64,000 nt of DNA from the human T2T-CHM13v2.0 reference genome, Homo sapiens: NCBI RefSeq assembly GCF_009914755.1, contig NC_060929.1; one strand, 5' to 3'. A program made the position numbers and the translations under genes. A model generated the notes under the pieces. It worked only from the letters and a program-made list of their open reading frames with translations. It had not been told where the DNA came from and searched no databases. This document shows positions 10,417-59,994 of this stretch, in pieces; the stretch's first letter is position 1, and each line of letters begins with the position of its first letter.

Positions 10417-10532
10417 GTTGACTGTGGTGAGTTCCAGGACACCAAGGTCTACTGCACTCGGGAATCTAACCCACACTGTGGCTCTGATGGCCAGACATAT
10501 GGCAATAAATGTGCCTTCTGTAAGGCCATAGT
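10417..10532 (+). CDS. SPINK6: SPINK6 coding exon 3, Kazal domain core [39 protein letters not shown]
   Basis: Acceptor ttggtAG at 10415-10416, 116-nt exon, donor GTaagt at 10533. Five Kazal cysteines with C-x7-C and CGSDGxTYxNxCxxC motifs; P1 Arg in CTRE. Confidence 0.97.
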
Positions 10533-35021: not shown

Positions 35022-35117
35022 CACGGTGGTAGTGAGCATGGTTTATTTGAAGAGCACCTACTACAGAGTTAGGCTTAACTCCACCCAACAGCCAAGTCTG
35101 AAACCACTGACGGTACC

Positions 35118-35166
35118 ATGAGGGCTTTCATTTTCTTTCTCTTCATGCTCCTGGCCATGTTCTCAG
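35118..35166 (+). CDS. MARCOL: MARCOL exon 1, signal peptide MRAFIFFLFMLLAMFS
   Basis: accATG context, hydrophobic 16 codons plus 1 nt, donor G|GTAAGA at 35167 (phase 1). Confidence 0.9.
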
Positions 35167-38100
35167 GTAAGAAAGTCACAGTCAATAGCTTTCCTTCCAA
35201 ATCTCAAAGGAAAGAATGAGAAATGTTAAGTGATTTAGCAATACTTTATCAAAAGATTTAAAAATAGGCAATCCATCAGACAGAGAAATGGAAGAAGGTA
35301 AATTTCCGACAAAATAAATGTAGATCTGGAGTCATAAAAATAGTGACTGAATGAAATCAGAGTGAATAGTTTGGTGTGACTGAAGAGAAATAGATACAAG
35401 GGAGTAGGAAAGGCAAAACATTAGACTGGAAAGATGAATTTAGACTAAGAGGCTTATGAGTTTGTGAATATGCAAGTTCATAATTTATAAGAAAATGGTT
35501 TTGTGATATGATCCTGGACTACATGGTCAAATAATAATGTGTTCAAATCTTGATGTTTTTTTCCCATTCATGTGATTTGAGGAAACTTGTTTAACTTACT
35601 TGAATCTCAATTTTCTCATTTGCAAAACGGAAATTATTATTCTTTCCTATAGAGTTATTTCGGGAACTATACAGATAATAGCTTTAGTTACCATTACTTG
35701 TGTTTTTTTAGGTACTTGACTCTCAACTTACTTTTCTCTATTCCTTACCTCAGTACAGTTAGGTGATTTTCAGATATGTAAATTTCTAGCTTTGAGATGT
35801 AAATTTCTCAAGATAATAAATGATAGTTAATACATTTCTCAAGATAAAAATTATAATAATGAAACTGATTCTAATTTATCCCCAAATCATAAGCTCCCAC
35901 TTGACCATCTTTCTTATACCTAGTGAAATGAAATAATAAAAGTAAAGTGCCTCAGACCCCCCACTTCTTATATTTGTAACATCAAAATAGTGTTTCTCTT
36001 TTCATTGGAAACACTGCAAAGCTGTTTCCGAGTTTTGAGTACAAGAGTGATAATATTCATCTTGTTAAGAAATATCAGTCTTGTGGTAATACTAAAAATG
36101 AATTAGATGTAAGAAAAGTTGTACAGTAATGCCACTGAGGAGCTGCTGAAGTAACAGAGTTAAGAAAAAAAAAGGGTGAGTTAAGAGATAGAATTAGAGA
36201 AAGGAGAACAATACGTGTATGTGTGTGTGTTTTAAAGGGGGAAAACAGATATTCAGATAAAATTCCTTTATGGAACATATATTTCATATTTCATGATGGC
36301 AGGTACTGTAACTGTTGTGACCTTCAGTGCCTTGCTAAGTGCTAGAAGGTATTTTGTGATGGAAGAAAGTGTATTATATATGCAATGATTATATATATTA
36401 GAAGATGAAGAAGAGAGATGAATCAGAAAAGCAATACTAAGCGCATCCTAGAGTTTGTAAAATCAGAAGGGAAAAAATACAAAACAAAGCTGAAGATACT
36501 TATTTTCCAAGTTTTTAGCTTAAAAAATAGATGGTGAAACCACATTATAATATCTTAATTGTCTCTTATTACTCCAAAATTCACCCTTAGTTTTTATTTA
36601 ATAAATTTACTTATCCATGTAAGAAATGATGTATTATTAGGATTTTCATTGATTCATTACTTACTTTAGCAAAAGAGGGAAATAAACTACCTGTTTATTA
36701 CTAGAACACTGGCTAAATAAATTATGATAAACCCATAAAATGGGATACTATGCAACCAATGAGGGGAAACAAATAAATATGCTCTATATGTATTGATGTA
36801 GTGAAATCTTCATTATATTGATTGTCCTTGGAGAAAACAAAGAGTAGAACTCTGTGTAGAGTGTGCCACCAATTGTGTGAATAATTATATTCATATATGT
36901 TTGTAAATACATAGGATATCCATCAAATAATTCACAAAAACCTGTAAATGTGATGGTGTCTTAGGCACTTTACTTTTACCATTTCCTAGGTAATAGGAAA
37001 TAATTATGTCGTAGTTAGGAAATTATTTTTGTGGGGGGTTTGGAGTGGGGGTACAGACAGGAAAGAAAAGGAAAGTAATTTTAAACTGTTTACTCTTTGC
37101 ACCTTTAGGATTTGGCCCCATTTACTTGTGTCACCTGTTAAAAAAACTGAAAGTCATTAATAAAAATATGTTACCAACTCTTTTTTCCTATTTCTTCCAC
37201 ATATCTACTTTAATTTATTTCTACTTGGTGTTAGCAACTGTTAATGAGCAATGTTTTATTCCTAGAACTGAAAGAATCCATACATGTACTCATCTCTCAG
37301 CTAAAAAAAATTATTTTTTCTCATTAATTTCTCTGGTTGAATCTTATGTTTCTTATGTACCTCCTCCTCCAGGAAGAAAAAAGGATTCCACACTCTCTGC
37401 TACCTTGATTAGGAGACTATTGTCTAGTTTACTCCTCACGTGATAGCATTGATCATTCTACTATAATATAAAGTCCTACTTATTTGCCCCACTACTAGAC
37501 TTCTCAGCTTCATGTGAGCAGGGCCGTGAATGTCTTGTTCATTCCTAGCTCTTTCTAAGCTTCTTTTATAATAACAAATTATTTAAATTTATATTTTTTT
37601 GTTAAATTGAATGAATGGCTAAGTTATACTCACAATCCATATCCACACTATACCACAGTTTAGTTAAGCAGGTTGCTAACTGCTAAGCTTCTGTGTCTTG
37701 ACTAGGACCTTAATCACCTGCAGGAGTATACCATAGCATGCTCAGTGCATACCAATTGACTATCATTTGACTTTGCTTAAATTGACTTGAAGGTATAAAT
37801 GTGTATATTTATGGAAATATAAAGCAGAGCAATTGAAAATTCAAGTGAGACCCTAAGTATACATCTGAAATAATCAACATTGGAATGATTTAAAATTGCG
37901 TATATTGAAAAAAATACCAAAAAAAACCTATGCAGAAAACAAAATGTAAGCCTAATTAAAATCTTTAAGAGAACCCCACATTAGGAAAGTGAATAAAGAA
38001 AGAGGAATTATCAAGCAAGAAGGAAAGGATGAGAAAAATATACACTTCTACCAAAAAAAAAAAAAAAAGGAAAAGAAGCATAGCCCAATGCAATACTCTT

Positions 38101-38971
38101 GTACTTAGCTCTAAAGTCATTCCATTTGTTTATTTATTGTTTTTTAGATCCTGCTCATTATGGAATATAATCTGAAAAAACATAAAACATATACACATAC
38201 ACACAATTACATATATTTCATTAGGGCATAGGTGGGCTTCCAAAATAAGTTGGAGAAGCTATAAAACACAGGGTTTAAGAAATAATCGTGATATTTACCA
38301 TTCTCTTGAGCAATTTGACCAAAATAGAAAGAAGAAATATAACCACCAGAGAGAGCATGATTGATCCTAAGGCCTTTTGTTGGAAATGGTGAACATAAAG
38401 CTGATTGAAAGACACATGTTCTGAAGGAGAAAGGAAACATCTGTTTTAGGGATGGAAATGGAAAGAAAGATGGCTACAGATAATATGTATAGAGATGGAA
38501 GTGAGAAGAATAAAGTGGGGCTCACGTCTGCCAGCCTTTTCCTGTCTGGAAAGTTGATGGCGTTATCCGTAAAGTGAAGCTGGAAAATTAGGAATAAAGT
38601 ACTTGGTGTGAAAAAATAAGTTTATAATGAGCATTGAGCAGAGCCAGTTTGATTCATCAGAAAACCATTTAAAGGAATTGGGGGTAGAATGAAGTCTCAA
38701 TTCAAATAATTCAGACTTTATGATTTAGAAATGGGGCAAGTTGGATTGATCCTCTAATTTTTGAAATCCATATAGTACAGTAAAGAAAACAAAGGAGGAA
38801 CCCAAATATTCAGGATATGAGGAAGAACGAGAAGATTCTATCTTGGGGCTTGGTTAAAAAATCAAGAAAGCATTAAAAACATACTATATCTTGGACAAAT
38901 GTTGTTGATTTAAAATTATTTAATGTATATAACTTTATTTTCATTTTTTTCTGGTTGTGTTATTATTCCAG

Positions 38972-39780
38972 CATCTTCAACCCAGATTTCAAATACCAGT
39001 GTCTTCAAACTAGAAGAGAATCCAAAACCTGCACTTATTCTGGAGGAAAAAAATGAAGCTAACCATCTAGGAGGACAAAGAGATTCTAATAAGCAAGGAG
39101 GTAGTTATACACAAGGAAATCCAGGAACGTTTAGGCTTCAAGGACTACCAGGCTATTTTAACAAGCTAGAGAAACCAAGACATTTTAAGCAAGGGAGAGC
39201 AGGAGTTTTAAACCAGCCTGGGATTTTAAAGAATTCAGGAAAATCTAACCAAAAAGGGAATCCAGAATCTTCTAATAAGCAGGAAAACTCAGGATCTTCT
39301 AGCCAACTAGGGAGACCAGGGATTTCTACCCAACAGGGAAATCCAGGGTCATCTGACCAACAAGAGAAACCAGGGTCATTTAGCCAGAAAGTGATGGTGG
39401 GGTCATCTAGCCAACAGGGGAAGCCAGGATCATCTAGCCAACACGGGAATCTAGGGTCATCAACCCAGAAAGGGAATTTAGGATCTTCTAGCCTACAAGG
39501 GCATCTGGGTTTATCTAGCCATCAAGGGAAGCCGGAGTCATCTGGCCAACAGGGGAAGCCAGGGTCATCTAGCCAGCAAGGAAATCTAGGAACTTCTGGC
39601 CAACAGGAGAAGCCAGGATCTTCTAGCCAACAGGGGAAGCCAGGGTTGTCTAGCCATCAAGGGAAGCCAGGGTCATCTAGCCAACAAGGAAATCTACATT
39701 TATCTAGCCAGCAAGGGAATCAAGGACCTTCTAGCAAACAGAGGAAGCCAGGTTCATCCAGCCGTCAAGGAAATCTATGA
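38972..39780 (+). CDS. MARCOL: MARCOL exon 2 coding part: secreted Gly/Ser/Gln/Lys/Pro 9-aa repeat protein (spliced product 285 aa)
   Basis: Acceptor ttattccAG at 38970-38971, phase 1 (G+CA = Ala). 49+809 = 858 nt = 285 aa + TGA. Sequence ASSTQISNTSVFKLEENPKP...RQGNL recognised as MARCO-like protein. Confidence 0.9.
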
Positions 39781-40074
39781 TTATCTAGCCAGCAAGGGAA
39801 TATAGGATCTCCTAGCCAAAAGGAGAAGCCAGAGTCTTCTAGCCAACAAGGGAATCTAGGGTCATCTAGCTATCAAGGGAAGCCAGTGTCATCTAGCCAA
39901 CAAGGGAAGCCAGTGTCATCTAGCCAACAAGGGAAGCCAGGGGCATCTAGCCAGCAAGGAGATCTAGGATCTTCTAAGCAGCAGGGGAAGCCAGGATCAT
40001 CTAGCCAGCAAGGAAATATAGGGTCATCTGGCCAGGAATGGAAGCCAGAGCCATCTAGCCATCAGAGAAAATTA
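39238..40074 (+). repeat. 27-bp coding tandem repeat, 31 units in unbroken register (consensus GSSSQQGKP / GSSSQQGNL)
   Basis: Units recur every 27 nt from 39238: 20 before the TGA at 39778 and 11 from it onward. Confidence 0.92.
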
Positions 40075-41758
40075 AGGTCATTTTACAACCAACGACAAAG
40101 AAAAAATATCGACAGCACTTTTGATGGCAATATAACGGACTTTGAGGTTAGTGCTAATAACTTCTTTTTCTCAGTCAACTTGACCCAGCAATTCTCTTTT
40201 CCAAGACTTAAAATGCTTTAAAAACCACAGTGTGTTAATGAAAAGTCACTTGCAATGACACTGATCAAACAAAATGAGAAGAACTTTGGAGCTGATTATT
40301 TTCATGCATAACACTTATGATTATTAATGAATGTACTGCCCTTCTATTCTTTCATTTCCCTCTATTATTTTCCACTCAAACCTCCCTACCTATACTAGAA
40401 TAACTCAGATCCTCATCAACTGAGCCCACATCTTTGCCAGGTTTAACTTTCATGTCCATTTTTATCCCATCCGTAATCTATAAATCACTGAAGTAATATT
40501 CCTAAATCAAAAATCCTCTCTGATATTTTAGACCCCTGCTTGAAATTCCCCAGTGGCTTCATACTACCTAGAAGATGTAACTTAAACTCCTAAACATAGA
40601 ATTTACAGATTTTCATGATTATACTGCATACTGTTTAGCCTCATTTCATGTCACTGTTGCTCACACACCACCCATGTCATACAGAGCCCTTTGATTTTCC
40701 ACTCATGTATTCCTAATACTAATGATTTCCTCTATTATTAAACTCACCTTAACACTTTGTAATTGTCTATTATCAGCTAGATAATGAACTTCTTGAAGAA
40801 AGTACCATGTATCCCCAGAACCTAGAATAAGTGTGGCATGTAGTAAGTTCTCCTGAACTGCATGTTAGATGGATAGATTAATGCCTGCTACTTGGAAGCT
40901 ACCATTTCAAATAGGTGAACATATCTGATCCACATGTCTCCTGTATTCCCTTTTGAATCCTGCTGCGCTTTTACTTTCACTTGCCTGCCTCTCTTCCAAC
41001 AATCGGCCTCCTGATTTATTTAACAATTGCTTTGAATACTCCGTTTGATACTCACATTCAAAACAGTTTTCTAGAACACTATCTTATCATCTTAATGGAA
41101 ACCATTTTTTTACCTCATAAATTTTCATTCCTCACAAGCCTTCCAGATGAAAGTCATTTGTTCTCTTAGTCATTATCAGTTGGCTGGCATGAAGTAGTAA
41201 TCTCTCAGAGAGACTCCCTACCATTCAGTTCTTAATGCCATCACCAGCAGGTCTCTGAGTTTTTAGGATGTCACTTAAATTTTTGCAATTTTATATTTAT
41301 TCTAGAATAGGAGAAATAACCATGTCCAATTAACACAGTATGTGTGAAATAAATTGATCGTTATGAAAGGGTTGTATGATTTGGAAAATATGAAGGTTTT
41401 TTTTATCTCCCTACAACATCTCAGCTCTGAGAATTCCACATCCTCTATTAAAAATGTCTCATCATTCTCATTAATGACTCTGTTCTCACCTGCTAGTCAA
41501 AGGGTACTTATATTCACAGGCTTCTGCCATTTAGCTCACATCCAAAGAAAATGCATCAGGTATTATTTAAATAAATCCTGCATAATCCTACTTCCTGTAT
41601 AATTTTTTTCATGGGCATACCAAAAAAAGGAAATCAACAAATTATGACTGTATGCGTTTTGCATTTGCTTGTGTGACTTTTCCCTGACTATTGTTTGTCC
41701 AGGTAGAGGAAGAATTGCCTCCAGAAAATTAAAATGGAGGCAGTCTGACATATAGTAA

Positions 41759-45250
<3,492 letters not shown>

Positions 45251-48200
45251 ATGTGGCCTCTTGTGTCCAACTTCTTTCACTTAGAAAGATGTTTCTGAGG
45301 TTTATCCATGATGTAGCATGTGTCAGTAGTCCCATTCCGTCCCTGGACCCACTCTCTCTCACACACCTCTCTGTAGTTCTAACCAACCAGGAATCTAATG
45401 TCTGTCTCTATAATTTTGCCACAAACTCTTGTATTCTTATCAAGATTTAGTAGAGTTTTAGGAATAAATATTTCTCCATTTGCTGTATGCCCTCAGGACT
45501 GTTTTCAGAAACAAAAATATTTAAACAGAATTTTCATCAATTAAATGCTTGTTTCACTGGGAAGAGAGTCCTCTGAATTGTTCACATTACCATTCCACCC
45601 ATTGTGGTTTTTATTTGCTCCTTCCAAATGACTAATGCTTCTGATTGTTGTCTCATGTGCACACAACCATTTCTAAATCTTCATAGTAAAATGCCTGTTC
45701 CTATCTTTTGCCAATTTTTTTTCATTTGTCTTCTTATTACCGAGTTATATGGGCTGTATTTCATTGTACTCTATTTTTGTTTACCAGATATGCTACTTGT
45801 TTTTATCACATCGAAAATAGAAATAGGAGTTTTTTTCCTAACTATTAATCTCTTTAATGAGATTAAGGTCTTAAAAGAAAAGTACTTTTCTTGAAAGATT
45901 TACTTCTTTATTCCTCATCTTTTGATATTTTGCATAAATTTTTCACTAGAATCAGCTCTTCTTTTCTAATGCTTTTCTTGTGTTTGAATTTTTTTCAATT
46001 GAGGGTCAACCTTATAAAATTTTCCCATCATGGGTGGTCTCTTTATTGATTCTGGCACCATTTTAAGCTAGAAATAGAGGCACTGGCAACTAATGGACAA
46101 TTTGGGCTTATTTCTCATTATTGTCTCTTTTACAACTTTTTTTCTCTATACCGGAAAAAACATACAGGTATTCAATTTATATTATCAAGCTCAGTGATCA
46201 TCTACCCCTCACCACCTGGGGTTCAATAAAGGTACTCATACGTGAGAAGAAGGAAAATGCCAAGATGGGCGTCACCAGGAAAGCTCTGGTCATTTCTGGG
46301 ATTCAACTATTTGGCCACCATCCAGGGACCTGCTCCTTAAGGCCTGTAAGGTTGTTGGCAGTTATCACCTCACAACTCTATATTCAGACCATCTTTCCAA
46401 ACACAATATTTCTGGGATTTCTTTCAGTCTTATCAGTCACTTGACCAAGGCAAAGAGGTGATATATGGAATGATATCAGAGGGAACTCAGCGGTCAGAGA
46501 TGGAGAACAATATCTAGAGAACAATAGGGAATATTACACTGCCAATACTTTTGTTTTTCAATATCAAAAGAAAGTTGACCATATAACCACTACTCCATTA
46601 ATCACAACAGAATTTAATAGCAAACAAGCAATCAAGATGTGTTTATCATGCAAATCTTGGAAGTGAAAAGACTTTTCATCTTTATTGTATAGACACGGAA
46701 AGAATTCTCTTAAAGCCTTTTGCTTTAAGGTATTTAATTTTTTCCAAAAAAAATGAATTAACCTATCAAGTTTAATAATTTAAATTAGTTTATGTAAATA
46801 CATCAGGACAAATAAAAAGTACTATTAAATTCAAACAATTCAATATTCAAGATAAAACAGTAAACAGAAAAAGTATGTTTCAAAAAAATTTAGGAACTAT
46901 CTCCTAGCTATGTAAGTTTAATCAATTAAAAAGGCAAAAACTTATCTAATGAGAACTATAAACAATATTATATATAATATATATACATGTGTATATATAT
47001 GAAGGTATATATACATATATATTCATATACATGCATGCATAAGTATATATACATGTGAGTGTTACAAAACTCTTTACTTACAGCATTTTTTAAGTAAAAA
47101 TTAAGTATAATAATTTTATGACCAATGTTTTAAAAATAAACCACTGAAATATCTAGCATATATTAAGCTATTAATATATGCTTTGATTTTTTTTAAGTTT
47201 AAATCTTTCAGTTAAATGCTAGTATTTTCAATTGTAATATATAATCCCTCTTTGAGCAATTAATTTACTATTTGTTCTAACTAAGGTTTCATAACTCCTA
47301 GATATATCTTACTCTTGCCCAGCTCATATAAAGGCTATAAGAAAGTTTCCTACTGGACATCAGATGAGATCAAACTGTCAACTTCACCAGAATGAACCAG
47401 AATATTTCTATTAAATCAATGTATGTCAATTTTATTTGATTATCCAAATAATTTCTGTCCTTAAACTTTTAAATTTTATTTGTTCTTATGATTATAGTCA
47501 TTAAAATATTTGTCTTCTAGTGATACCATGAGTTCTTATTATTTAGCTTCAACCTGTAAGTGAGAAAATGTGGTATTTACTTTTCTGTTCCTGCATTAGT
47601 TGTCTAAGGATAATGCCCTCCAGCTCCATCCATGTTCTTGCAAAAGACATAATCTCATTCTTTTTTATGGCTGCATAGTATTCCATGGTGTATATGTACC
47701 ACATTTTCTTTAATCTGTCATTGACAGGCATTTAGATTGATTCCATGTCTTTGTTATTGTAAATAGTGCTACAATGAATATATGCATGGCTGTGTCTTTA
47801 TGATAGAATGATTCATATTTCTTTGGGTACATACCCAGTAATAGGATTATTGGGTTGAATGATAGTTCTGTTTTTGGCTCTTTGAGAAATCACCCACTGC
47901 TTTCCACAATGATTAAACTAATTTACACTCCCACCAATGGTGTATAAGTATTCCTTTTTCTCTGCAACCTCACCATCGTCTGTTATTTTTTGACTTTTAC
48001 ATAATAGCCATTCTGATTGGTGTGAGATGGTATCTCATTGTGGCTTTCATTAGCATTTCTCTAATGATAGGTGAGATTGAGTTCTTATGCTTGTTGGCTG
48101 CGTGTATAGGTCTTCTTTTGAAAAATGTCTATTCATATCCTTTGCCTACTTTTAATGGGGTTTTGGTTTGTTTGTTGTAAATTTGTTTAAATTCCTTATA

Positions 48201-48361
48201 GATACTGGCTATTAGTCCTTTGTCAGATGCATAGTTTGCAAATATTTTCTCCTATTCTGTAGGTTATGTTTACTCTGTTGATAGTTTTCTTTGCTCTGCA
48301 GAAGCTCTTAAGTTTAATTAGATCCCACTTGTCAATTTTTGCTTTTGTTGTGATTGCTTTT

Positions 48362-48511
48362 CTATTTGATGTTTTATTTTCAATAATGAATTGTTTGAAT
48401 TTAATTGTACTTTTTATTTGTCCTGATATATTTGCATACTAATTAAAATTATTAAACTGGACAGGTTAATTCATTTCTTTGGAGAAAATTAAATACCTTA
48501 AAGCAAAAGAC
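48362..48511 (-). other. 150-bp inverted copy of 46715-46867 inserted with a 14-bp TSD
   Basis: Reverse complement aligns over its whole length to 46715-46867; flanked by ttgtgattgctttt at 48348-48361 and 48512-48525. Confidence 0.88.
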
Positions 48512-48625
48512 TTGTGATTGCTTTTGACGTCTTTGCCATGAAATCTTCGCCTGTACCTACGTCCAGAATAGTAGTGCCTAAACCCCAAGTCCTCTAGGGT
48601 TTTTATAGTTTGGGGTTTTACATTT

Positions 48626-51515
<2,890 letters not shown>

Positions 51516-54500
51516 TAAATCTTTACTCCATCTTGAGTTGATTTCTGTCTATAGTATAAAGAAGAGGTTCAGTTTCAATCTTCTCCATGTGGCCAACTAG
51601 TTATTCTAGCACTATTTATTGAATAGAGAGTCCTTTCCCCATTGCTCGTTTTCATTAGCTTTGTTGAAGATCAAATGGTTGTACATGTGTGGCCTTATTT
51701 TGGGGCTCTCTATTCTGTTCCATTGGTCTATGTGTCTGTTTTTGTACCAGAATCATCCTGGTTTGGTTACTGTAGCCCTGTCATACAGTTTGAAGTCAGG
51801 TAACATAATGCCTTCAGCTTTGTTTTTTTTTTGCATGGGTTGCCTTGGCTATTTGGGCCCATTTATGGTTCCATGTGAATTTTAAAATCGTTTTTTCTAG
51901 TTTTGTGAAGAATGTCATTGGTAGTTTGATAGGAATAACTTTGAATCTATAAATTGCTTTAGATAGGACAGCCATTTTAACAATATTCACTCTTTTTATA
52001 AATGATCATGGCATGTTTTTCCTTTTTTGTGTGTGTATCATCTCTAATTTCTTTGAGAAGTGTTTTGTAATTCTCATTGTAGAGATCTTTCACTTCCATG
52101 GTTAGCTGTAGTCCTTGGTATTTTATTCTTTTTGTGGCAGTTGTGAATGGAATTGCATTCCTGATTTGTCACTCAGCATGACTGTTTTTCATTTATAGGA
52201 ATGCTAGTGATTTTTTATGTTGATTTTGTATCCTGAAACTTGGCTGAAGTTGTTTATCAGCTGAAGGAACTTTTAGGCCAAGACTATGAGATTTTCTAGG
52301 TACAGAATCATGTCATCTGAAAACAGGGAGAGTTTGACTTTTTCTCTCTTCCCATTTGGATGCCCTTTATTTTTTTCTCTTGCCTGATTGCTCTGGCCAG
52401 GACTTCCAATACTGTGTTGGATATGAGTGGTGAGAAAGGGCATCCTTGTCTTGTGCCAGTCTTCAAGGGAAATACTTCCAGCTTTTGTTCATTCAGTATG
52501 AGTTTGGCTATGCGTTTGTCATACATCCTTCTTATTATTTTAAGGTATGCTCCTTCAAACTTAGCTTTTTGAGAGTTTTTAACATGAAGTGATGTTGAAT
52601 TTTATCAAAAGCTTTTTTGCATCTATTGAGATAATTTGTGGGTTTTGTCTTTAGTTCTGTTTATGTGATAAATTATCTTTATTGATTTATGTACGTTGAA
52701 TCAACCTTGCATCCCAGGATTAAGCCTACTTGATCATGGTGGACTTGCTTTTTGATATACTGCTGGGTTTTGTTTACAAGTATTTTGTTGAGGATTTTTA
52801 CATCAATTTTCATCAAGGATATTGGCCTGAAGTTTTCTTTTTTTGTTGCCTTTCTGCCAGGTTTTGGTATTAGGATGATGCTGTCCTCATCGAATGAGTT
52901 GGGGAGAAGTCCCTTCTCCACAATTTTCTAGAATAGTTTCAGCAAGAGTGGTACCAGCTCTTTGTTGTACAACAGGTAAAATTCACCTGTGAATCCATCT
53001 AGTCCTGGGATTTTTTTGGTTTGTAGGCTATTTATTACTGATTCAATTTTGGAGCTCATTATTGGTCCTGGTTCAGTCTTGGGAGGGTGTATGTGTCCAT
53101 TTCTTCTAGATGTTTAGTTTGTGTTTATAGAGTGAACATAGTACTATTATATTGACATTTTTCTTTCTGTGCGATCAGAGGTAACATGCCCTTCATCATT
53201 TTTAATTGTGTTTATTTTGATGTTCTCTCTTTCTTTCTTTATTAGTCTAGCTAACAGCCTATCTATCTTAGTGTTTAAAAAGAAACCCAACTCTCATATT
53301 TGTTGATCTTTTGAATGTTGTTTTGTATGTCAATTTCCTTCAGCACAGCTCTGATTTTGGTTATTTCTTGTCATCTGCTAGCTTCAGAACTGATTTGTTC
53401 TTGCTTCTCTAATTCTTTCAGCTGTGATATTAGGTTGCTAGTCTGAGCTCTTTCTAACTTTTCAATGTGAGCATTTAGTGCTAAGAATTTTCCTCTTATC
53501 ACTGCCTTAGCTGTACCCCAGAGTTTCTGATACGTTGTATCTTTCTTCTCATTAGTTTCAAAGAGCTTCTTTATTTCTGCCTTAATTTTATTATTTACCC
53601 AAAAGTCATTTTGAGAGTATGTTGCTTAATTTCCATGTAATTGCATTGTTTTGAGTGATCTTCTTAGTCTTGACTTGTATTTTTATTGTGCAGTGGCCCT
53701 AGAGTGTGTTTGTTATGATTTTGGTTCTTTTGTATTTGCTGAAGATTCTTTTATGTCCAATTATGTGGTTGATTTTAGAGAATGTGCCATGTGGCAATGA
53801 GAAGAATGTATATTCTGTTGTTTTCAGGTGGAGAGTTCTGTAGAAGTATATCATATCCATTTGGTCCAAAGTGGAGTTCCAGTCCTGAATATCTTTGTTA
53901 ATTTTCTGCCTTGATGATCTGCCTAAAAACTGTCAGCAGAGTGTTGAAGTCCCCACTATTATTGTGTGAGATTCTCTGTCTCTTTGTAGGCCTCTAAGAA
54001 TTTGCTCTATGAATCTTTGTGTTCCTGTGTTGGGTGCATATATAGTTAGGCTAGTTAGGTCTTCTTGCTGAATTGAACCCTTTACCATTATGTAATCCCC
54101 TTTTTTTGTCTTAGTTAATCTTTATTGGTTTAAAGTCTGTTTTCTTTGAAATTAGGGTTAAAACCATTGCTTTTTTCTGGTTTCTTTCATTTCTTTATTT
54201 GGAGTCTGTGGGTGTCATTGCATGTGACATTGGTCTCTTGAAGACAGCATACCATTGGGTCTTGCTTTTTTATCCATCCTGGCCCTCTGTGCCTTTTAAA
54301 TGAAGTATTTAGCACATTTACATTAAAGGTTAGTATCGATATGTGTGGATTTTATCCTGTCATTGTGTTGCTAGCTGGTTATTATGCTGACTTGTTTGTG
54401 TGGTTGGTTTGTAGTGGCAGTGGTCTGTGTGCTTAAAGGGTGTTTTTGTATAGACTGGTAACAGTCTTTTCTTTCCATATTCAGTGCTCCTTTCAAGATC

Positions 54501-57339
54501 TCCCGTAAGGCAGGTTTGATGGTTAAAACAAAACAAAAACAAAAACAAAGAACCTCCCTCAGCATTTGCTTATCTAAAAACAATCTCATTGCTCTTTGGC
54601 TAAGGAAGCTTAGTTTGCGTAGATATTAAATTCTTGGCTTAAGAATTTTTCTTTAAGAATGTTGAATATAAACTCCCAAACTCTTCTGGCTTATAGGGTT
54701 TCTGCTGAGCAGTTCACTGTTAGCCTAATGGGCTTCCCTTTGTAGGGAAATGGCGGCTTTTTCTTGCTAGCTGCCTTTAACATTCCTTTTTTCATTTCAA
54801 CATTAGAAAATCTGGTGGTGATGTGTCTTGAGGATGATCTTTTTGTGTAGAATCTCACAGGGTTTTTCTCTGTTTCCTGAATTTGACTATTAGCTTCTCT
54901 AGTGGGGCTGGAGAAGTTTTCGTGATGATATCATGAAATATGTTTTCCAAGTTGTTTGCTTTCTTCCTGTCCCTTTCAGGGATGCAAATGATTCACAGAT
55001 TTGTCTTCCTTACATAATCCCATATTTCCCAGAGTTTTTGTTTCTTATTTTTTATTCTTTTATCTTTATTTTTGTCTGACTGTCTTATTTCAGAAAACCA
55101 CTCTTTAAGTTCTGATGTTCTTTCCTCAGTGTGGTCTATTCTGCTGTTAATATTTGTGATTGCCTTGTGAAATTCTCATCCTGTAGTGTGTTTTTTGCTC
55201 TATCACATGAGTTAGATTATTTTTTAAATCGGCTGTTTCATCTGTCAGCTCCTGTACACTTTTGTTGTGATTCTTAGTTTCCTTGGATTGAATTTTGGTC
55301 TTCTGCTGAATCTTGATGACCTTTTCTGTCCAGATTCTGAATTATATTTCTGTCATTTCTCCAGATTCTGGAGAGTTCACAAGGACCAGGGGCCTGGAGA
55401 CAGCAAGACAAGTGTTGTGAAACAGCAAAGACCACAACCCACCCCTCCTACTTGAAGCTCCAACCCAGGGAACTGCAAAGCTACTACTGGTTTGATACCC
55501 CTGGTTGGGGGAGTGGCTGGAGACTCAGCCCAGGAAGGATCCACCCAGTGAGAAGATATGGGATAGGGGACCCACATAACAAATAGTCTGGCTACCTTTG
55601 TGTAGGGCTGCTGCAGTATGCTGGGAGTCCACCACACTCCCTAGTCACCTCAGATTTTCCAGTATCTGAAGGTATCAACAGTGAAGGCTGTCAAACAGCA
55701 AAGATAGTGGCCTGCCCCTCCCTCTGAAAGCTCTGTCCCAGGGAGGTATGGACATGTTGTCAGCCCAAACACACCTGCAGGATGTGGCTGGAGACCCCAG
55801 TCAAGAGAGGCCACCCAGTGAGGAGAAACAGGATTGGGAAACTGCATAAACAGGATTGGGAATCTGGCTGCATTTTTTGTAGTGCATCTGTGCTGCACTG
55901 GAGGCCTACTCCAGCCTCCAGTCACCTCAGACTTTCCAAAGCCCAAAGGCAAGAACAACTAAGGCTGTCAAACATCACAGATGGTTATCTGTCCCTCCCT
56001 CTGGGAGCTTCATCCTAGGGAGGTATGCAATCACTGTCGGCTGGAGTTTGGATGACTGGAGACCCCAGGTGGCGATTTTGGCCAGTGAAGACAAATGGGA
56101 TCTGGGTTCCATGTGAATAAGCAGTCTAGCTGCCTCTCCATAGAGTTCCTGGGCTATGCCCTGGGACCACTCCAGTTCCTAATTGCCTTGGACTACCACT
56201 TCTTTGGGTTGGGGAAGCTCCCTTGGCTCTGGGTCACTCCTGGGAGGATTGTCATCCTGCCTTGCTTTTCTCCCTTCCCCATGGGTTATTTCTTTGATGA
56301 GTCCCAATGTGTGTACCTGGATCTTTCAACTGAAGGTGCTATATTTATTATTACTTGTCCCTTCCCTTCATGAGAGTGGCACACATTAGCTCCTTCTAGT
56401 TGGCCATCTTGGCCAACCTCCTTATAATTGTTTATAGTTTCATATTTTCTTTTTCTCTCTCAAACTCTACAAGTACTTGACCAAAGGATGAAATTTTTAA
56501 TTTGGTTTTAACTTTATTAATTTGAATTTTAAATCAGCAGCAGAAAAAGCTGAGCCCTGGGGCAGAGTGCATGACATTTTTATGTGTGAGGATTATCTGG
56601 AAAGAGGGGGCTTATAGTGAAGAGAGAGTCAGAAGCTAAAGGTTCCTGTCTTGCCTCCCTATATGTTTAACATGTAATAGGTGAAATTTCCCTCCCTACT
56701 TTGAGCCTTCTGCTCCCCCCATGTCCAATGAAATTAACCTCGATTAGGGCTCTCAAATTTTTATTCAGCAAAACAATCCTTTCCTCAAATAAATCATCCT
56801 CAAAACACCTGTATATATAACAGATTAATATGCCTGAGAGATGAGGGTCAGGCTGACTTTGGATGAGATTGGAATCTTACAACTGGATACTTTTTTCACA
56901 CCTAACACACACTCTACTCCACCCACAATGCTTTCACAGATTTTTTTGTAGTCATTTTTGTATTACTGTTTTAGATTTGGCAGACTAGCTCTAACCTTTT
57001 ATATTTCCCCTCTTTCCTTTTTCCTTCCATTTGAAACATGGTATGTCTAAGAAACTTAACACTTTTTTTTAAATTGTATTAATTTAAATCTAAATTTAAA
57101 TTGTCACAGGTCCTTTGACTAGTGACTACTGTGTTGGATGTGCAGGTCCTCAGTTCATCACATGAAACTGAGAAAGGGCACAAGCTTTATTTCTGAAAGC
57201 TTTTTTTCTGAAAGCTCTTTCCTGAGACACTCCTGCTCTACTGTGCCTCCTGTAGTCCTGGTAGGCTAACTCTCTTCTGCTTTTCCTCCTTTTACAACTG
57301 CTGCTCTCAGTTCCCAGAACCTGAGTTTATTCTACTCCA

Positions 57340-57492
<153 letters not shown>

Positions 57493-57729
57493 GAACCCCA
57501 TCATTTTTCTGCTGTTTTTCAATCATAGGTTGCTTCCAGGTCCCATCTGCTCTTGCATATGGAGCCACTTCTAATTCTTGAATTTCTCAAATACCTCACC
57601 TGTTACAATTTCTTGTGTTTTCCTATCATTTCAATTCTCATTTCTTCATCTTCTCTTGTCTCCCATTGTATTCTTCTTCAAAAAATGTTCTCACAGCTTT
57701 ACTCTTTATACACCCTCAAAATCTTAAAA

Positions 57730-58236
57730 TGGGGTCTTAAAATAGAAATCATAAGGCTAAAATAACAGATTCTTATGACAATAAGATCCAAATTCTAAAC
57801 ATGACCTAAGGCCATGCCAGACAAGGGTCAAATCATACACCCCTACAGGTCACTCTGACCCAGTGTATTGGTTAACAGACTTCCTGATTTTAACTTAAAC
57901 ATTCATTTCTGCTGACTCCATATATTTAGACTAAGCTTTATTCCTTTAGCCAATAGCAAATTAAATAATTTCTGAAACCACATATGACCTGTAAGCCATT
58001 TCAAGATATCCAATCTTTTAGGCCAAACCAATATATACAGTTCATGTATTAATTTATGACTTTGCCTGTAACTTCTACTTTCCTAAACTGTAAAAAACAG
58101 AGTTGTGACCTAACTGCCTCAAGACATCACACTCAAGGCTTCTTAGGTTTGTGTTGCCCTCTGGCTGTGGTCACTCATGTTGGCTCACAATAAACCTCCC
58201 TAAAATATTTTACATCGTTTGGGTTTTCCCTGAACA
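57730..58236 (+). mobile_element. ERV1 solo LTR (MER34/MER39-group-like)
   Basis: 3' end ggtcactcatgttggctcacAATAAAcctccctaaaatattttac..gggttttccctgaaCA is typical of this LTR group. 5' boundary approximate. Confidence 0.7.
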
Positions 58237-58701
58237 AGTCAAGTAATAAGAGTGCTCCCTACTGAATTAATAAATATATAAGTATTTTGCATCACTCAAT
58301 TTATTTGAGAAAAGAAGATATTTTACACTGAATATTGCCTTAATCACTCTTCCATTCAGGAGTCCTAGTGACTTCTTCATTGTCTAAATTTCAATCTAGG
58401 GAACATGAGGATGGTAGCCTAAATTTATTGAACACTGATTATTCACCAGGCCTTGCAAAAAGTGTTTTAAATCTGTTATTACACTTACTTTTCTCAAAAC
58501 TAGTTTGAAAAAATACAGTTCTCTTCTCTTCTTTCTATATGAGAAAACTGAGGTTTGAAGAGGCTAAAAATGTTTCTTAATTCCAGAAAGTTGGTTAATG
58601 ATGGTGCTGTTCCTGACCTCATTCTTCTGACTTTAGAGTCCATGTAATTACTTGCTGCAGTCTACAATATGGGTATGTGAAAACTCCTTTTCTCCTTGCA
58701 G

Positions 58702-58827
58702 CTGGATTGTGAGAAATATAATTCAAGGCACAGGAACATCTTGACATTCTGAGCTAATCCTCATCTCTGTGTGTGGTACAGATAGAACAAATCAGGATAA
58801 TCCTAGCCAACTGTCCATGGAAATCAA
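58702..58827 (+). pseudogene. Decayed Kazal-domain exon (SPINK exon-3 type)
   Basis: Acceptor ctccttttctccttgcAG; LDCEKY, then after a 1-nt shift GTS*HSELILISVCGTDRTNQDNPSQLSMEI; phase-2 donor AA|GTGAGG at 58828. Confidence 0.72.
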
Positions 58828-59994
58828 GTGAGGATATTAATAGGAGTATGATGTACAGTATAGGCTAATTATGCATGTCTACTTAGAATTCTTGCTTTTT
58901 AGAGCAGGAAGAGAGCAAGTCAACCACCCCATTTTACAGATGGACACACTGAGCTCCAGAGAGGGAAATGATTCCTTACTCATATTCCTTACTCATAATG
59001 ATTCCTTACTCATGTACATTAGAACTAGATCCCAGGTCTGCTGACTCCCAATCGAGGGCCCAAGTAGTATTGAGGTCTGCATCATGAGACAGTCAACTGT
59101 CAGGTTGTGGACCTGAGACACAAGGTGCATTATATTTCTACTGAATGTAATCTTAATCTCATCAGATTGTCTAAATATAAATTCTTTCCTTTTTCAGTGA
59201 TTTTGTCATCTGTGGCAACTTAGTTTCCTTCTTTTTAGCTAACCTTGGGAGTGACTTTGGCTTATGATGACTGTATTTTCTAAGCCTTTGACAGAGACAG
59301 TTCGTGTGTCCATGATTAAGCCATAAAAAGGCTTATTGGTGTCAGTCACATTCAGCATGAGTATACTCTCTGACCTTCTTTGTTTGAGGAGTATTTTGGA
59401 CTAGAAGTTCTTTCTGGTGTTTTCTTTTGAGGCCTCCCAGTTTCTCTGACCTATCCTGCTCCTACCTCGGAAATTTCTCAGTTGACTGGATCCTTTCTCT
59501 TCCTCTTCTCCAACCCCTGCTGACTGTATGCTCCACTACTATGACACCAATTCTGTCCACTTTCTTCCTTATTGATATGAATATACTAACTTTAAGCCCT
59601 CTGCCTCCAATGGGTTCAGTTTTTGAGAAATTCAGAAACCCCAAAAGCAACCACGTGTGGCCAAAGCCATTTTCTCCATCAAATTATATGTTAGAACAAA
59701 ATATTATATTAAGAGTCCTCCATAATATTAGAGGAAAGTTTTCACCCTCATTTAAGCAGATAACCTTAATATGTCCAATCTTCCAGAGAAAGAATTCTAA
59801 TAAAAATGTAAAGTGGGAACAGATGAGAACCAACTTTTATACAAATTAGTAAGTTTTATGCTTTTGTATTTGTACCTAACTCATTACTAAAATTTTTAAG
59901 TGAAATCTGTAAGGTTTCTATTTGTGTCAGTCTATATGTTTATACATGTTTGCTATGTATATCTGACATTTTTCTACCCCCAGATGGTATTGTC

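What the first reader, a model, noticed from the sequence alone, without database searches (positions are those of the whole stretch)
35118..58833. MARCOL appears to be a truncated SPINK-architecture gene: signal exon, giant Gln/Lys repeat exon, lost Kazal domain
Seen: the MARCOL signal exon ends in phase 1. Exon 2 starts in phase 1 and, ignoring one stop, ends at a phase-0 donor (GAG|GTTAGT, 40147). A decayed Kazal exon (phase 0 in, phase 2 out) follows at 58702. These are the SPINK6 intron phases (1/0/2), but exon 2 would be 1175 nt instead of 23. About 12 kb of the 18.5-kb gap is L1. Inference: the ancestral product was a ~460-aa secreted protein with a Gln/Lys-rich repeat tethered to a Kazal inhibitor, a Kazal analogue of trappin/elafin, where a transglutaminase-substrate cementoin repeat anchors a WAP inhibitor to matrix or cornified envelope.
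Basis: partly seen in the sequence, partly recalled or inferred. Interest (0 to 1): 0.9.

Follow-up and report, generated by a model that had tools for sequence, protein, structure and literature searches.

The report
Human MARCOL: SPINK-type gene without Kazal
Human MARCOL is the shortened remnant of a mammalian secreted protein that joins a long Gly/Ser/Gln/Lys repeat to a Kazal protease-inhibitor domain, but the broken Kazal exon 18 kb downstream is probably a relic of a different dead SPINK gene.

Summary
MARCOL exon 1 ends in phase 1. Exon 2 stays open for 1175 nt apart from one TGA, and it ends at a phase-0 GT donor at 40147. A decayed Kazal exon lies at 58702-58827.

The main inference is right. 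In 20 of 31 non-primate "MARCO-like" proteins the same signal peptide, 9-residue repeat and tail are followed by a C-terminal Kazal domain. Pfam Kazal_1 scores 45-53 bits in 8 of 8 tested. That domain has only four Cys, and its P1 residue is Ser in 18 of 20.

The 58702 exon does not appear to be that domain. It keeps relics of the classical six-Cys pattern. It has a 76%-identical dead twin between SPINK7 and SPINK9. It is no more like the MARCOL-type Kazal than chance allows. By contrast, plain intron sequence after the 40147 donor is still 48% identical to horse when translated.

No MARCOL-type Kazal exon was found in 26 kb downstream or anywhere in the genome, so it was probably deleted.

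The trappin-like idea of a transglutaminase anchor is plausible but untested. I found no paper on the gene. The name "MARCO like" rests on a weak collagen match.

The parts
35045..35166 (+). MARCOL exon 1. The signal-peptide coding part is 35118-35166 and ends in phase 1.
   Evidence: Sequence and phase. The peptide MRAFIFFLFMLLAMFS matches the orthologue N-termini MKAFIFLPFMFLAMFS.
38972..40146 (+). MARCOL exon 2 up to the conserved phase-0 donor. The annotated CDS stops at 39780.
   Evidence: It is 1175 nt with one stop. It is homologous to 31 'MARCO-like' proteins, best E 6.1e-75.
39236..40061 (+). Tandem array of 27-nt units (9 residues, GKPGSSSQQ-like) with a 108-nt higher-order period.
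   Evidence: TRF finds 30.6 copies at 71% matches. Composition of the repeat part is S 26%, G 18%, Q 18%, K 7.5%.
39778..39780 (+). TGA that ends the annotated protein, about two-thirds of the way into the array.
   Evidence: The unit reads GNL*LSSQQ.
40027..40146 (+). Non-repeat tail after the stop (…RKLRSFYNQRQRKNIDSTFDGNITDFE), orthologous to the linker that precedes the Kazal exon in other mammals.
   Evidence: tblastn gives E 2.7e-10 with beaver and 3.7e-10 with vole.
40147..40400 (+). Conserved GT donor and the start of intron 2.
   Evidence: In seven single-exon ORFs from unnamed genomic contigs (of the seven fetched) the tail is followed directly by read-through starting VS or VC, as in human VSANNFFF. 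The horse read-through aligns to 40147-40350 at 48% identity over 71 codons, E 1.1e-13.
41940..55061 (.). L1 fragments that fill much of the gap.
   Evidence: RVT_1 or L1 ORF1 domain hits occur at 42917-43246(-), 48841-50838(-), 50943-51515(+), 52311-52601(-) and 54374-54625(-). In total 8980 nt align to the L1 at 27-34 kb of the window.
58702..58827 (+). Decayed classical Kazal exon with both splice sites intact. It is a relic of a SPINK paralogue and most likely not MARCOL's own.
   Evidence: The C1 codon TGT is at 58708. The codons at the C2, C4 and C5 positions are TCT (58748), AGC (58805) and TCC (58814). The C3 codon TGT is at 58772.
58263..59071 (+). Ancient duplicated segment (intron, exon, intron) shared with window-coordinate 118310-119082.
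   Evidence: blastn finds three colinear blocks at 70.7-77.6% identity. In the mafft alignment the exon is 66.7% identical and the flanks 64.5% and 71.2%.
10417..10532 (+). SPINK6 exon 3, used as the comparator Kazal exon in this window.
   Evidence: It was the only hit of the MARCOL-type Kazal HMM in the window (E 1.3e-8).

Best explanation
MARCOL is a member of the 5q32 SPINK cluster. Its small second exon has grown, by slippage of a 27-nt unit, into a long Gly/Ser/Gln/Lys repeat.

In other boreoeutherian mammals the gene encodes four parts in order: a signal peptide, a conserved region of about 110 residues, 5-15 copies of a GKPGSSSQQ repeat with a short linker, and a C-terminal Kazal domain on two further exons. 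That domain has four Cys (C1 and C5 are missing) and usually Ser at P1.

In human the inhibitor module is gone. No MARCOL-type Kazal exon remains downstream or anywhere in the genome. A TGA also truncates the expanded repeat. The gene can therefore make at most a 285-residue secreted, disordered repeat protein.

The Kazal pseudo-exon at 58702 is a separate, older relic of a classical six-Cys SPINK gene. It has a dead twin between SPINK7 and SPINK9.

Inferred, not shown: in species with the full protein, the Gln/Lys repeat serves as a flexible tether, possibly a transglutaminase substrate, that holds the Kazal inhibitor at an epithelial surface or matrix. Human MARCOL would then parallel the REST/semenogelin genes, which kept a trappin-like repeat and lost the inhibitor.
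For: Orthologue layout.
- 31 hits at E <= 0.001, and 20 of 31 carry Kazal_1/Kazal_2.
- 9 models end in the complete ...EAKR-LSNGKLSLNHEGKC type C-terminus.
- Pfam Kazal_1 scores 45-53 bits (cut-off 21) in 8 of 8 orthologues tested. The human read-through protein gives only Collagen at 30.2 bits (cut-off 27.2).
- A protein-atlas cluster named 'MARCO-like protein' has 94 members, 98% of them with Kazal (score 0.88, a lead only).

SPINK architecture.
- The phases are 1 and 0 in human.
- The donor at 40147 is shared with the seven genomic read-through ORFs.
- 11 incomplete models diverge right after EAK(R) (EAQR in one). This is the position that aligns with the SPINK6 exon 3/4 junction.

Loss of the MARCOL-type Kazal in human.
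- An HMM built from 20 exon-3 and 6 exon-4 peptides finds only SPINK6 in the window plus the next 10 kb.
- A frameshift-tolerant scan of 40000-66000 on both strands finds nothing that stands clear of the maxima of shuffled queries; the best score, 47, is below the highest shuffled maximum for the same query, 48.
- A whole-genome search with the dog Kazal gives 33 hits, none between exon 2 and SPINK13.
- In simulation, an exon with 15% divergence and two indels is recovered in 91-98 of 100 trials.
- Neutral intron sequence at 40147-40400 still matches horse at E 1.1e-13.

The 58702 exon is a different Kazal.
- It has a paralogue at C5:148856773 with 76% identity.
- Both copies start x-D/N-C..Y after the acceptor, and their Cys-position codons are each one step from TGT/TGC.
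- Its z-scores are 0.6-3.3 against 9 MARCOL-type exons and 4.3-5.7 against two SPINK5 domains.
- Exon identity to the twin is about the same as intron identity.
Against: - No primate protein, not even the human one, came back from the protein library. The loss therefore cannot be dated, and a primate with a MARCOL-type exon at the 58702 position cannot be excluded.
- The core of the twin copy (IFTPVCGTHRKTYVNPC) is slightly closer to the MARCOL type (11 of 17) than to SPINK9, SPINK7 or the SPINK5 domain compared (9 of 17 each; my count from the sequences). The relic lineage may therefore be a sister of the MARCOL Kazal.
- The 58702 exon lies in the right place and on the right strand, has compatible phases, and keeps both splice sites.
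- No first exon of a separate gene was found.
- At 25-35% divergence my scan would miss most exons: 41-67 and about 10 of 100 were recovered.
- The tether or transglutaminase function rests on composition only. Nothing here shows expression, secretion, cross-linking or inhibition.
Confidence: 0.72

Rival explanations
1. One reading: the exon at 58702 is MARCOL's own Kazal exon, decayed in place after the gene was truncated.
For: It is the first Kazal-like exon downstream of the conserved phase-0 donor. It is on the same strand, has compatible phases and keeps its AG and GT sites. At least 9 kb of the 18.6-kb gap is L1 insertion. No other candidate exon was found.
Against: An ungapped comparison anchored on the C3 codon gives about 7 of 40 identities to the MARCOL-type exon (my count), and z-scores are 0.6-3.3. 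Neutral intron sequence beside exon 2 is 48% identical to horse when translated. The exon keeps a C1 codon and one-step relics of C2, C4 and C5, while 20 of 20 orthologues lack C1 and C5. Its twin lies 60 kb away with no MARCOL-like repeat nearby.
Confidence: 0.12
2. The Kazal ends of the orthologue models are annotation artefacts. On this view, gene predictors joined the MARCOL repeat exon to exons 3-4 of a neighbouring independent SPINK gene, and MARCOL never had an inhibitor domain.
For: Most entries are automatic predictions. Several are clearly mis-joined, such as a cat model fused to a trypsin-like domain and a kangaroo-rat model that starts with a Kazal fragment. Eleven of the 20 Kazal-bearing models miss exon 4.
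Against: The same junction appears in 20 models from carnivores, ruminants, bats, horse and rodents, plus a hedgehog model seen only in a listing. The conserved tail has no stop at its end and runs into a conserved phase-0 donor. The attached Kazal is of a special four-Cys type, with an N-terminal extension that is not seen in any human SPINK exon.
Confidence: 0.06
3. The repeat is not a transglutaminase anchor. It is instead a hydrated, possibly O-glycosylated or phosphorylated spacer or lubricant. Alternatively, human MARCOL has no function and is simply a unitary gene loss in progress.
For: Ser is the commonest residue, at 26% of the repeat. About half of the human units have lost the Lys, reading GNL, GNI or GHL instead of GKP. 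Human MARCOL has also lost the Kazal exons and 122 codons.
Against: In orthologues nearly every unit keeps one Lys and a Gln-Gln pair. This is the kind of composition described for transglutaminase-substrate repeats in trappins (PMC2831891, Background section, read). A curated human mRNA exists, according to the annotation supplied with the finding.
Confidence: 0.4

Closest known systems
SPINK6 and the other single-domain SPINK genes of the 5q32 cluster (SPINK7, SPINK9)
   Same: They share the cluster and strand. The signal exon ends in phase 1, a second exon ends in phase 0, and the Kazal domain is split over the last two exons in phase 2. The orthologue Kazal matches SPINK6 (PDB 2n52, E 1.9e-9) and the ovomucoid third domain (about 1e-10).
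   Different: Exon 2 is 1175 nt instead of 23 nt. The orthologue Kazal has four Cys instead of six. P1 is Ser in 18 of 20 orthologues, against Arg in SPINK6. The human copy has no Kazal at all.
Trappin-2 / elafin (PI3)
   Same: Both are secreted proteins with an N-terminal Gln/Lys-containing short tandem repeat followed by a small disulfide-rich protease-inhibitor domain. Repeat number varies between species. The trappin definition is from PMC2831891, Background section, read.
   Different: The inhibitor is Kazal, not WAP. The unit is 9 residues (GKPGSSSQQ), not the hexapeptide KGQDPV. The repeat and the inhibitor lie on separate exons, not on one exon. The locus is different. Cross-linking is untested.
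REST genes (SEMG1, SEMG2, rodent Svs2-6)
   Same: These are repeat-only secreted proteins thought to derive from an inhibitor gene that kept the transglutaminase-substrate part and lost the inhibitor. Their exons expand by slippage, and fixed or polymorphic stop codons are frequent (PMC7556508, Introduction, read). Human MARCOL shows the same three features.
   Different: REST genes lie in the WFDC locus, have a three-exon layout with a non-coding last exon, and are expressed in seminal vesicle. The site of MARCOL expression is unknown to me.
MARCO (the collagenous scavenger receptor behind the gene's name)
   Same: The only shared feature is a weak Pfam Collagen match: 30.2 bits against a cut-off of 27.2, with no single stretch passing.
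   Different: Gly sits at positions 1 and 4 of each 9-residue unit but not at 7, so there is no continuous Gly-X-Y. No other Pfam family was found at E <= 0.01 in the human read-through protein or the eight orthologues, so no domain links them to a scavenger receptor. That MARCO has an SRCR domain and a membrane anchor is recalled, not tested. The name is misleading.

Membership tests
Kazal-type inhibitor / SPINK family (Pfam PF00050) | A Kazal domain detected above Pfam's gathering score | tested here: not met
   The human read-through protein P0001 gives no Kazal hit. Orthologues give Kazal_1 at 45-53 bits in 8 of 8. The family, therefore, is a member but the human gene product is not.
Kazal-type inhibitor / SPINK family (Pfam PF00050) | Six conserved Cys forming the C1-C5, C2-C4 and C3-C6 bridges (pairing recalled) | tested here: not met
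   20 of 20 orthologue exon-3 peptides lack C1 and C5, leaving four Cys. The 58702 relic and its twin do keep C1 and one-step relics of the other Cys codons.
Kazal-type inhibitor / SPINK family (Pfam PF00050) | SPINK gene layout: signal exon in phase 1, short exon in phase 0, Kazal split in phase 2, location in the 5q32 cluster | tested here: met
   Phases 1 and 0 were read in human. The phase-2 split is inferred from 11 orthologue models that diverge after EAK(R) (EAQR in one). The position between SPINK6 and SPINK13 comes from the supplied annotation.
Kazal-type inhibitor / SPINK family (Pfam PF00050) | Inhibition of a serine protease through the loop after C2 | not testable with these tools
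   P1 is Ser in 18 of 20 orthologues and Pro in 2 of 20. The target protease is unknown.
Trappin | N-terminal transglutaminase-substrate domain of KGQDPV-type hexapeptide repeats | tested here: not met
   The unit is 9 residues, GKPGSSSQQ-like. It contains Gln and Lys, but cross-linking cannot be tested here.
Trappin | C-terminal WAP four-disulfide core, encoded on the same exon as the repeat | tested here: not met
   The domain is Kazal rather than WAP, and it lies on separate exons.
Collagen / MARCO-like scavenger receptor | Uninterrupted Gly-X-Y repeats and the other domains of MARCO | tested here: not met
   Gly is at positions 1 and 4 of 9 only. Pfam gives a marginal Collagen score and no other family for the human protein.

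The most novel reading that the evidence does not exclude
MARCOL is the Kazal-locus counterpart of the trappin-to-semenogelin story. In most boreoeutherian mammals it would be a Kazal inhibitor anchored to epithelial matrix or cornified envelope by transglutaminase, through its Gln/Lys repeat. In the human lineage the inhibitor exons were deleted and the repeat expanded to about 30 units. That would leave a repeat-only cross-linkable protein, a second and independent case of an inhibitor gene turning into a structural substrate.
Probability: 0.2. Interest if true: 0.75.

Novelty: new variant of a known kind. Interest (0 to 1): 0.45.

Why it matters
The SPINK cluster controls epidermal and mucosal kallikrein proteolysis (recalled knowledge). 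This work points to an unstudied cluster member with an unusual layout, in which a long repeat precedes a four-Cys Kazal domain. It appears intact in dogs, horses, ruminants, bats and rodents but truncated in humans. That means animal models carry an inhibitor that humans lack. It also means the human gene name and protein description are misleading. If the repeat proves to be a transglutaminase substrate, the locus would offer a second, independent example of the trappin/REST principle. Six literature searches found no paper on the gene beyond entries in gene lists.

Tried and rejected
- A possible exon-4 relic at 46280-46333 (KALVISGIQLFGHHPGTC; E 0.08-0.28 against SPINK6). The MARCOL-type exon-4 HMM does not hit it, and its scan scores are within the shuffled null. 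I treat it as chance.
- A hit 'SINHQGKC' at window-coordinate 66437 (E 0.56). It has no exon context and I rejected it.
- DNA similarity of MARCOL exon 1, or of the exon 2 acceptor region, to SPINK6, 7, 9, 13 or 14 first exons. Nothing was found beyond chance. A shared 9-mer, GTGTCTTCA, between SPINK6 exon 2 and MARCOL exon 2 has a chance expectation of about 0.07 by my own estimate, so it is not usable.
- A chr8 match to exon 2 (E 3.4e-10). It is an unrelated 27-nt minisatellite encoding GDNSLQGKL.
- My recollection that mouse Gm94 might be the orthologue was wrong. Gm94 is the C5orf46 orthologue (listing).
- A search for functional relatives of the 58702-type exon, using its twin read with X at a stop. 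No candidates were found, which is weak evidence.
- Exon length as a discriminator. The pseudo-exon is 126 nt, SPINK7 exon 3 is 125, SPINK9 is 128, SPINK6 is 116 and the MARCOL type is about 122. This is not decisive.
No 3D model was made.
- Passages from two papers that matched 'Marcol' plus 'SPINK' turned out to be author names.


Full report
**What is in the sequence**

MARCOL exon 1 codes 49 nt from the ATG at 35118 and ends CAG|GTAAGA, which is phase 1. Exon 2 begins at 38972. Read with exon 1, it gives 408 codons up to GAG|GTTAGT at 40147, which is phase 0. The only stop is the annotated TGA at 39778-39780.

Most of exon 2 is a 27-nt tandem array: 30.6 copies at 39236-40061, with a 108-nt higher-order period. 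An open frame after the stop is therefore not remarkable in itself. What matters is that the non-repeat tail after the array is homologous to the end of the same exon in other mammals (tblastn E 2.7e-10 with beaver and 3.7e-10 with vole).

SPINK6, in the same window, has coding exons of 58, 23 and 116 nt, giving phases 1/0/2.

**The decisive test: orthologues**

I searched the large protein library with the read-through translation, with X at the stop. It returned 31 proteins at E <= 0.001. The named ones are called 'MARCO-like protein' or 'MARCO like', and one horse entry is called 'Kazal-like domain-containing protein'. They come from ruminants, carnivores, bats, horse, pangolin, rabbit and rodents.

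- Twenty of the 31 carry Kazal_1/Kazal_2.
- Nine models (dog, reindeer, horse, Eptesicus, two Myotis, beaver, water vole, Molossus) are complete. They run signal peptide, conserved N-terminal region, GKPGSSSQQ repeats, the linker ...SFYNQEERKNVGNPLN..IQ, and then a Kazal domain that ends ...EGKC.
- The 11 without Kazal are not real Kazal-less ends. Seven are single-exon ORFs from unnamed genomic contigs in which the tail is followed directly by read-through beginning VS or VC, as human does with VSANNFFF. Three more (rabbit, hamster, pangolin) also run into that intron. One cat model is fused to a trypsin-like domain.

My own Pfam scan gave Kazal_1 at 45-53 bits (cut-off 21) at the extreme C-terminus in 8 of 8 orthologues. 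The human read-through gave only a marginal Collagen hit of 30.2 bits (cut-off 27.2), which is evidently the source of the name.

An atlas cluster 'MARCO-like protein' has 94 members, 98% with Kazal (a lead only). A second library search with the dog tail and Kazal added a hedgehog model to the Kazal-bearing set.

**The MARCOL-type Kazal**

All 20 exon-3 peptides follow the pattern TGKTSSKNPTGNTK-C-QSIYKPV-C-GSDGKTYGNR-C-VFNEAK. They have no Cys at the C1 or C5 positions. With the last Cys in exon 4, that makes four Cys in all.

The residue two places after C2 is the P1 position of classical Kazal inhibitors (recalled). It is Ser in 18 of 20 and Pro in 2 of 20. SPINK6 has Arg there.

The closest solved structures by sequence are single classical Kazal domains: the ovomucoid third domain at about 1e-10 and SPINK6 (2n52) at 1.9e-9.

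Eleven incomplete models diverge immediately after EAK(R) (EAQR in one). This is the position that aligns with the SPINK6 exon 3/4 junction, so the phase-2 split is probably shared.

**Is the exon at 58702 that domain?**

The exon is real. It has an AG acceptor and a GTGAGG donor at 58828, and is 126 nt. Frame 0 reads LDCEKYNS... and frame +1 reads ...SVCGTDRTNQDNPSQLSMEI, so it needs one frameshift and at least one stop.

It has a DNA paralogue at C5:148856773-148856871 (window-coordinate 118773, between SPINK7 and the SPINK9 Kazal exon), with 76% identity and E 1.3e-10. Colinear homology runs over about 0.8 kb of intron, exon and intron.

Several results count against it being MARCOL's own exon.

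- *Cys relics.* Both copies start x-D/N-C-x-K/R-Y directly after the acceptor, like SPINK5, 7 and 9 exon 3. Their codons at the C2, C4 and C5 positions are TCT/TGG, AGC/TGC and TCC/TAC, each one step from a Cys codon. This is the classical six-Cys pattern, which the MARCOL type lacks.
- *Similarity.* A frameshift-tolerant alignment scored 58702 at z 0.6-3.3 against nine MARCOL-type exons and z 4.3-5.7 against two SPINK5 domains.
- *Neutral evolution.* Between the two copies the exon is 66.7% identical and the flanks 64.5% and 71.2%. Both have therefore drifted neutrally for most of the time since they duplicated.
- *An internal yardstick.* The first 250 nt of intron 2 after the 40147 donor, which is plain non-coding DNA, still aligns with the horse read-through at 48% identity over 71 codons (E 1.1e-13). 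An exon that was constrained in horse and neutral only on the human branch should look at least that similar. The 58702 exon shows about 7 of 40 identities (my count).

**Where MARCOL's own Kazal went**

- An HMM of the MARCOL-type exons finds only SPINK6 in the window plus the next 10 kb.
- A frameshift-tolerant scan of 40000-66000 on both strands finds nothing clear of the shuffled maxima. The highest score was 47, against a highest shuffled maximum of 48 for the same query.
- A search of the whole T2T genome with the dog domain gives 33 hits, all outside the stretch between exon 2 and SPINK13. The chr5-cluster hits lie at the Kazal-exon places already seen.
- In simulation, an exon with 15% divergence and two indels is found in 91-98 of 100 trials. 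At 25% it is found in 41-67, and at 35% in about 10.

I conclude that the exons were deleted rather than decayed. At least 9.0 kb of the 18.6-kb gap is L1.

The caveats are these. No primate protein was returned by the library, so I cannot date the loss. The twin's core is marginally closer to the MARCOL type than to other SPINKs (11 of 17 against 9 of 17), so the relic may be a sister lineage of the MARCOL Kazal. I found no first exon for it.

**How it probably works**

Shown: the layout of the orthologues, and the loss of the inhibitor module and of 122 codons in human.

Inferred: the repeat, which has one Lys and a Gln-Gln pair per 9 residues in orthologues, acts as a flexible tether and possible transglutaminase substrate for the Kazal domain.

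This is analogous to trappins, whose KGQDPV repeats are cross-linked to matrix (PMC2831891, Background section). It is an analogy, not membership: the unit, the inhibitor fold and the exon layout all differ.

Human MARCOL resembles the REST/semenogelin genes. Those are thought to have kept the substrate repeat of a PI3-like ancestor and lost the inhibitor. They expand by slippage and often carry stop codons (PMC7556508, Introduction).

About half of the human units have lost the Lys. Simple decay of the human gene is therefore an equally live reading.

**Novelty**

The Kazal domain of the orthologues is visible in automatic database annotation. However, six full-text searches found no paper on the gene, its Kazal domain or its human truncation. 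I rate it a new variant of a known kind, of moderate interest.

Noticed in passing
L016:5697-5871 (G000:C5:148856697-148856871; window-coordinate about 118697-118871, outside the window): A second dead Kazal exon lies between SPINK7 and the SPINK9 Kazal exon. It reads VNCNRYID...PVCGTHRKTYVNPCQLYMKIR, has intact AG and GT sites, and appears to contain an internal tandem duplication of about 36 nt. It is not in the supplied gene table.
   Followed up: partly
L016:4816-4935 (window-coordinate 117816, the annotated start of the long SPINK9 transcript): The annotated first exon of SPINK9 translates to an L1 ORF1 piece (Pfam Tnp_22_trimer, 30.4 bits). That transcript therefore starts inside an L1 element, not at a SPINK signal exon.
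   Followed up: partly
window 40098-40106: The RefSeq 3' end of MARCOL (40106) falls at the end of a genomic GAAAAAA run. No AATAAA or ATTAAA occurs between 40000 and that end. It lies 40 nt before the conserved donor. The annotated end may reflect internal priming, and real transcripts may run on or splice at 40147.
   Followed up: partly
L023 (G000:C8:111068620-111068913, minus strand): A 27-nt minisatellite encoding GDNSLQGKL units matched MARCOL exon 2 at E 3.4e-10. The resemblance is low-complexity only.
   Followed up: yes
proteins P0007 and P0014: Two orthologue models are chimeric. The kangaroo-rat model begins with a Kazal-like fragment from an upstream gene. A cat isoform is fused to a trypsin-like protease. 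Automatic models in this cluster need care.
   Followed up: no
window 39243-40061: The human array has a 108-nt (four-unit) higher-order period and about 30 units, against roughly 5-15 in the orthologues fetched. This suggests a lineage-specific expansion by four-unit blocks.
   Followed up: no
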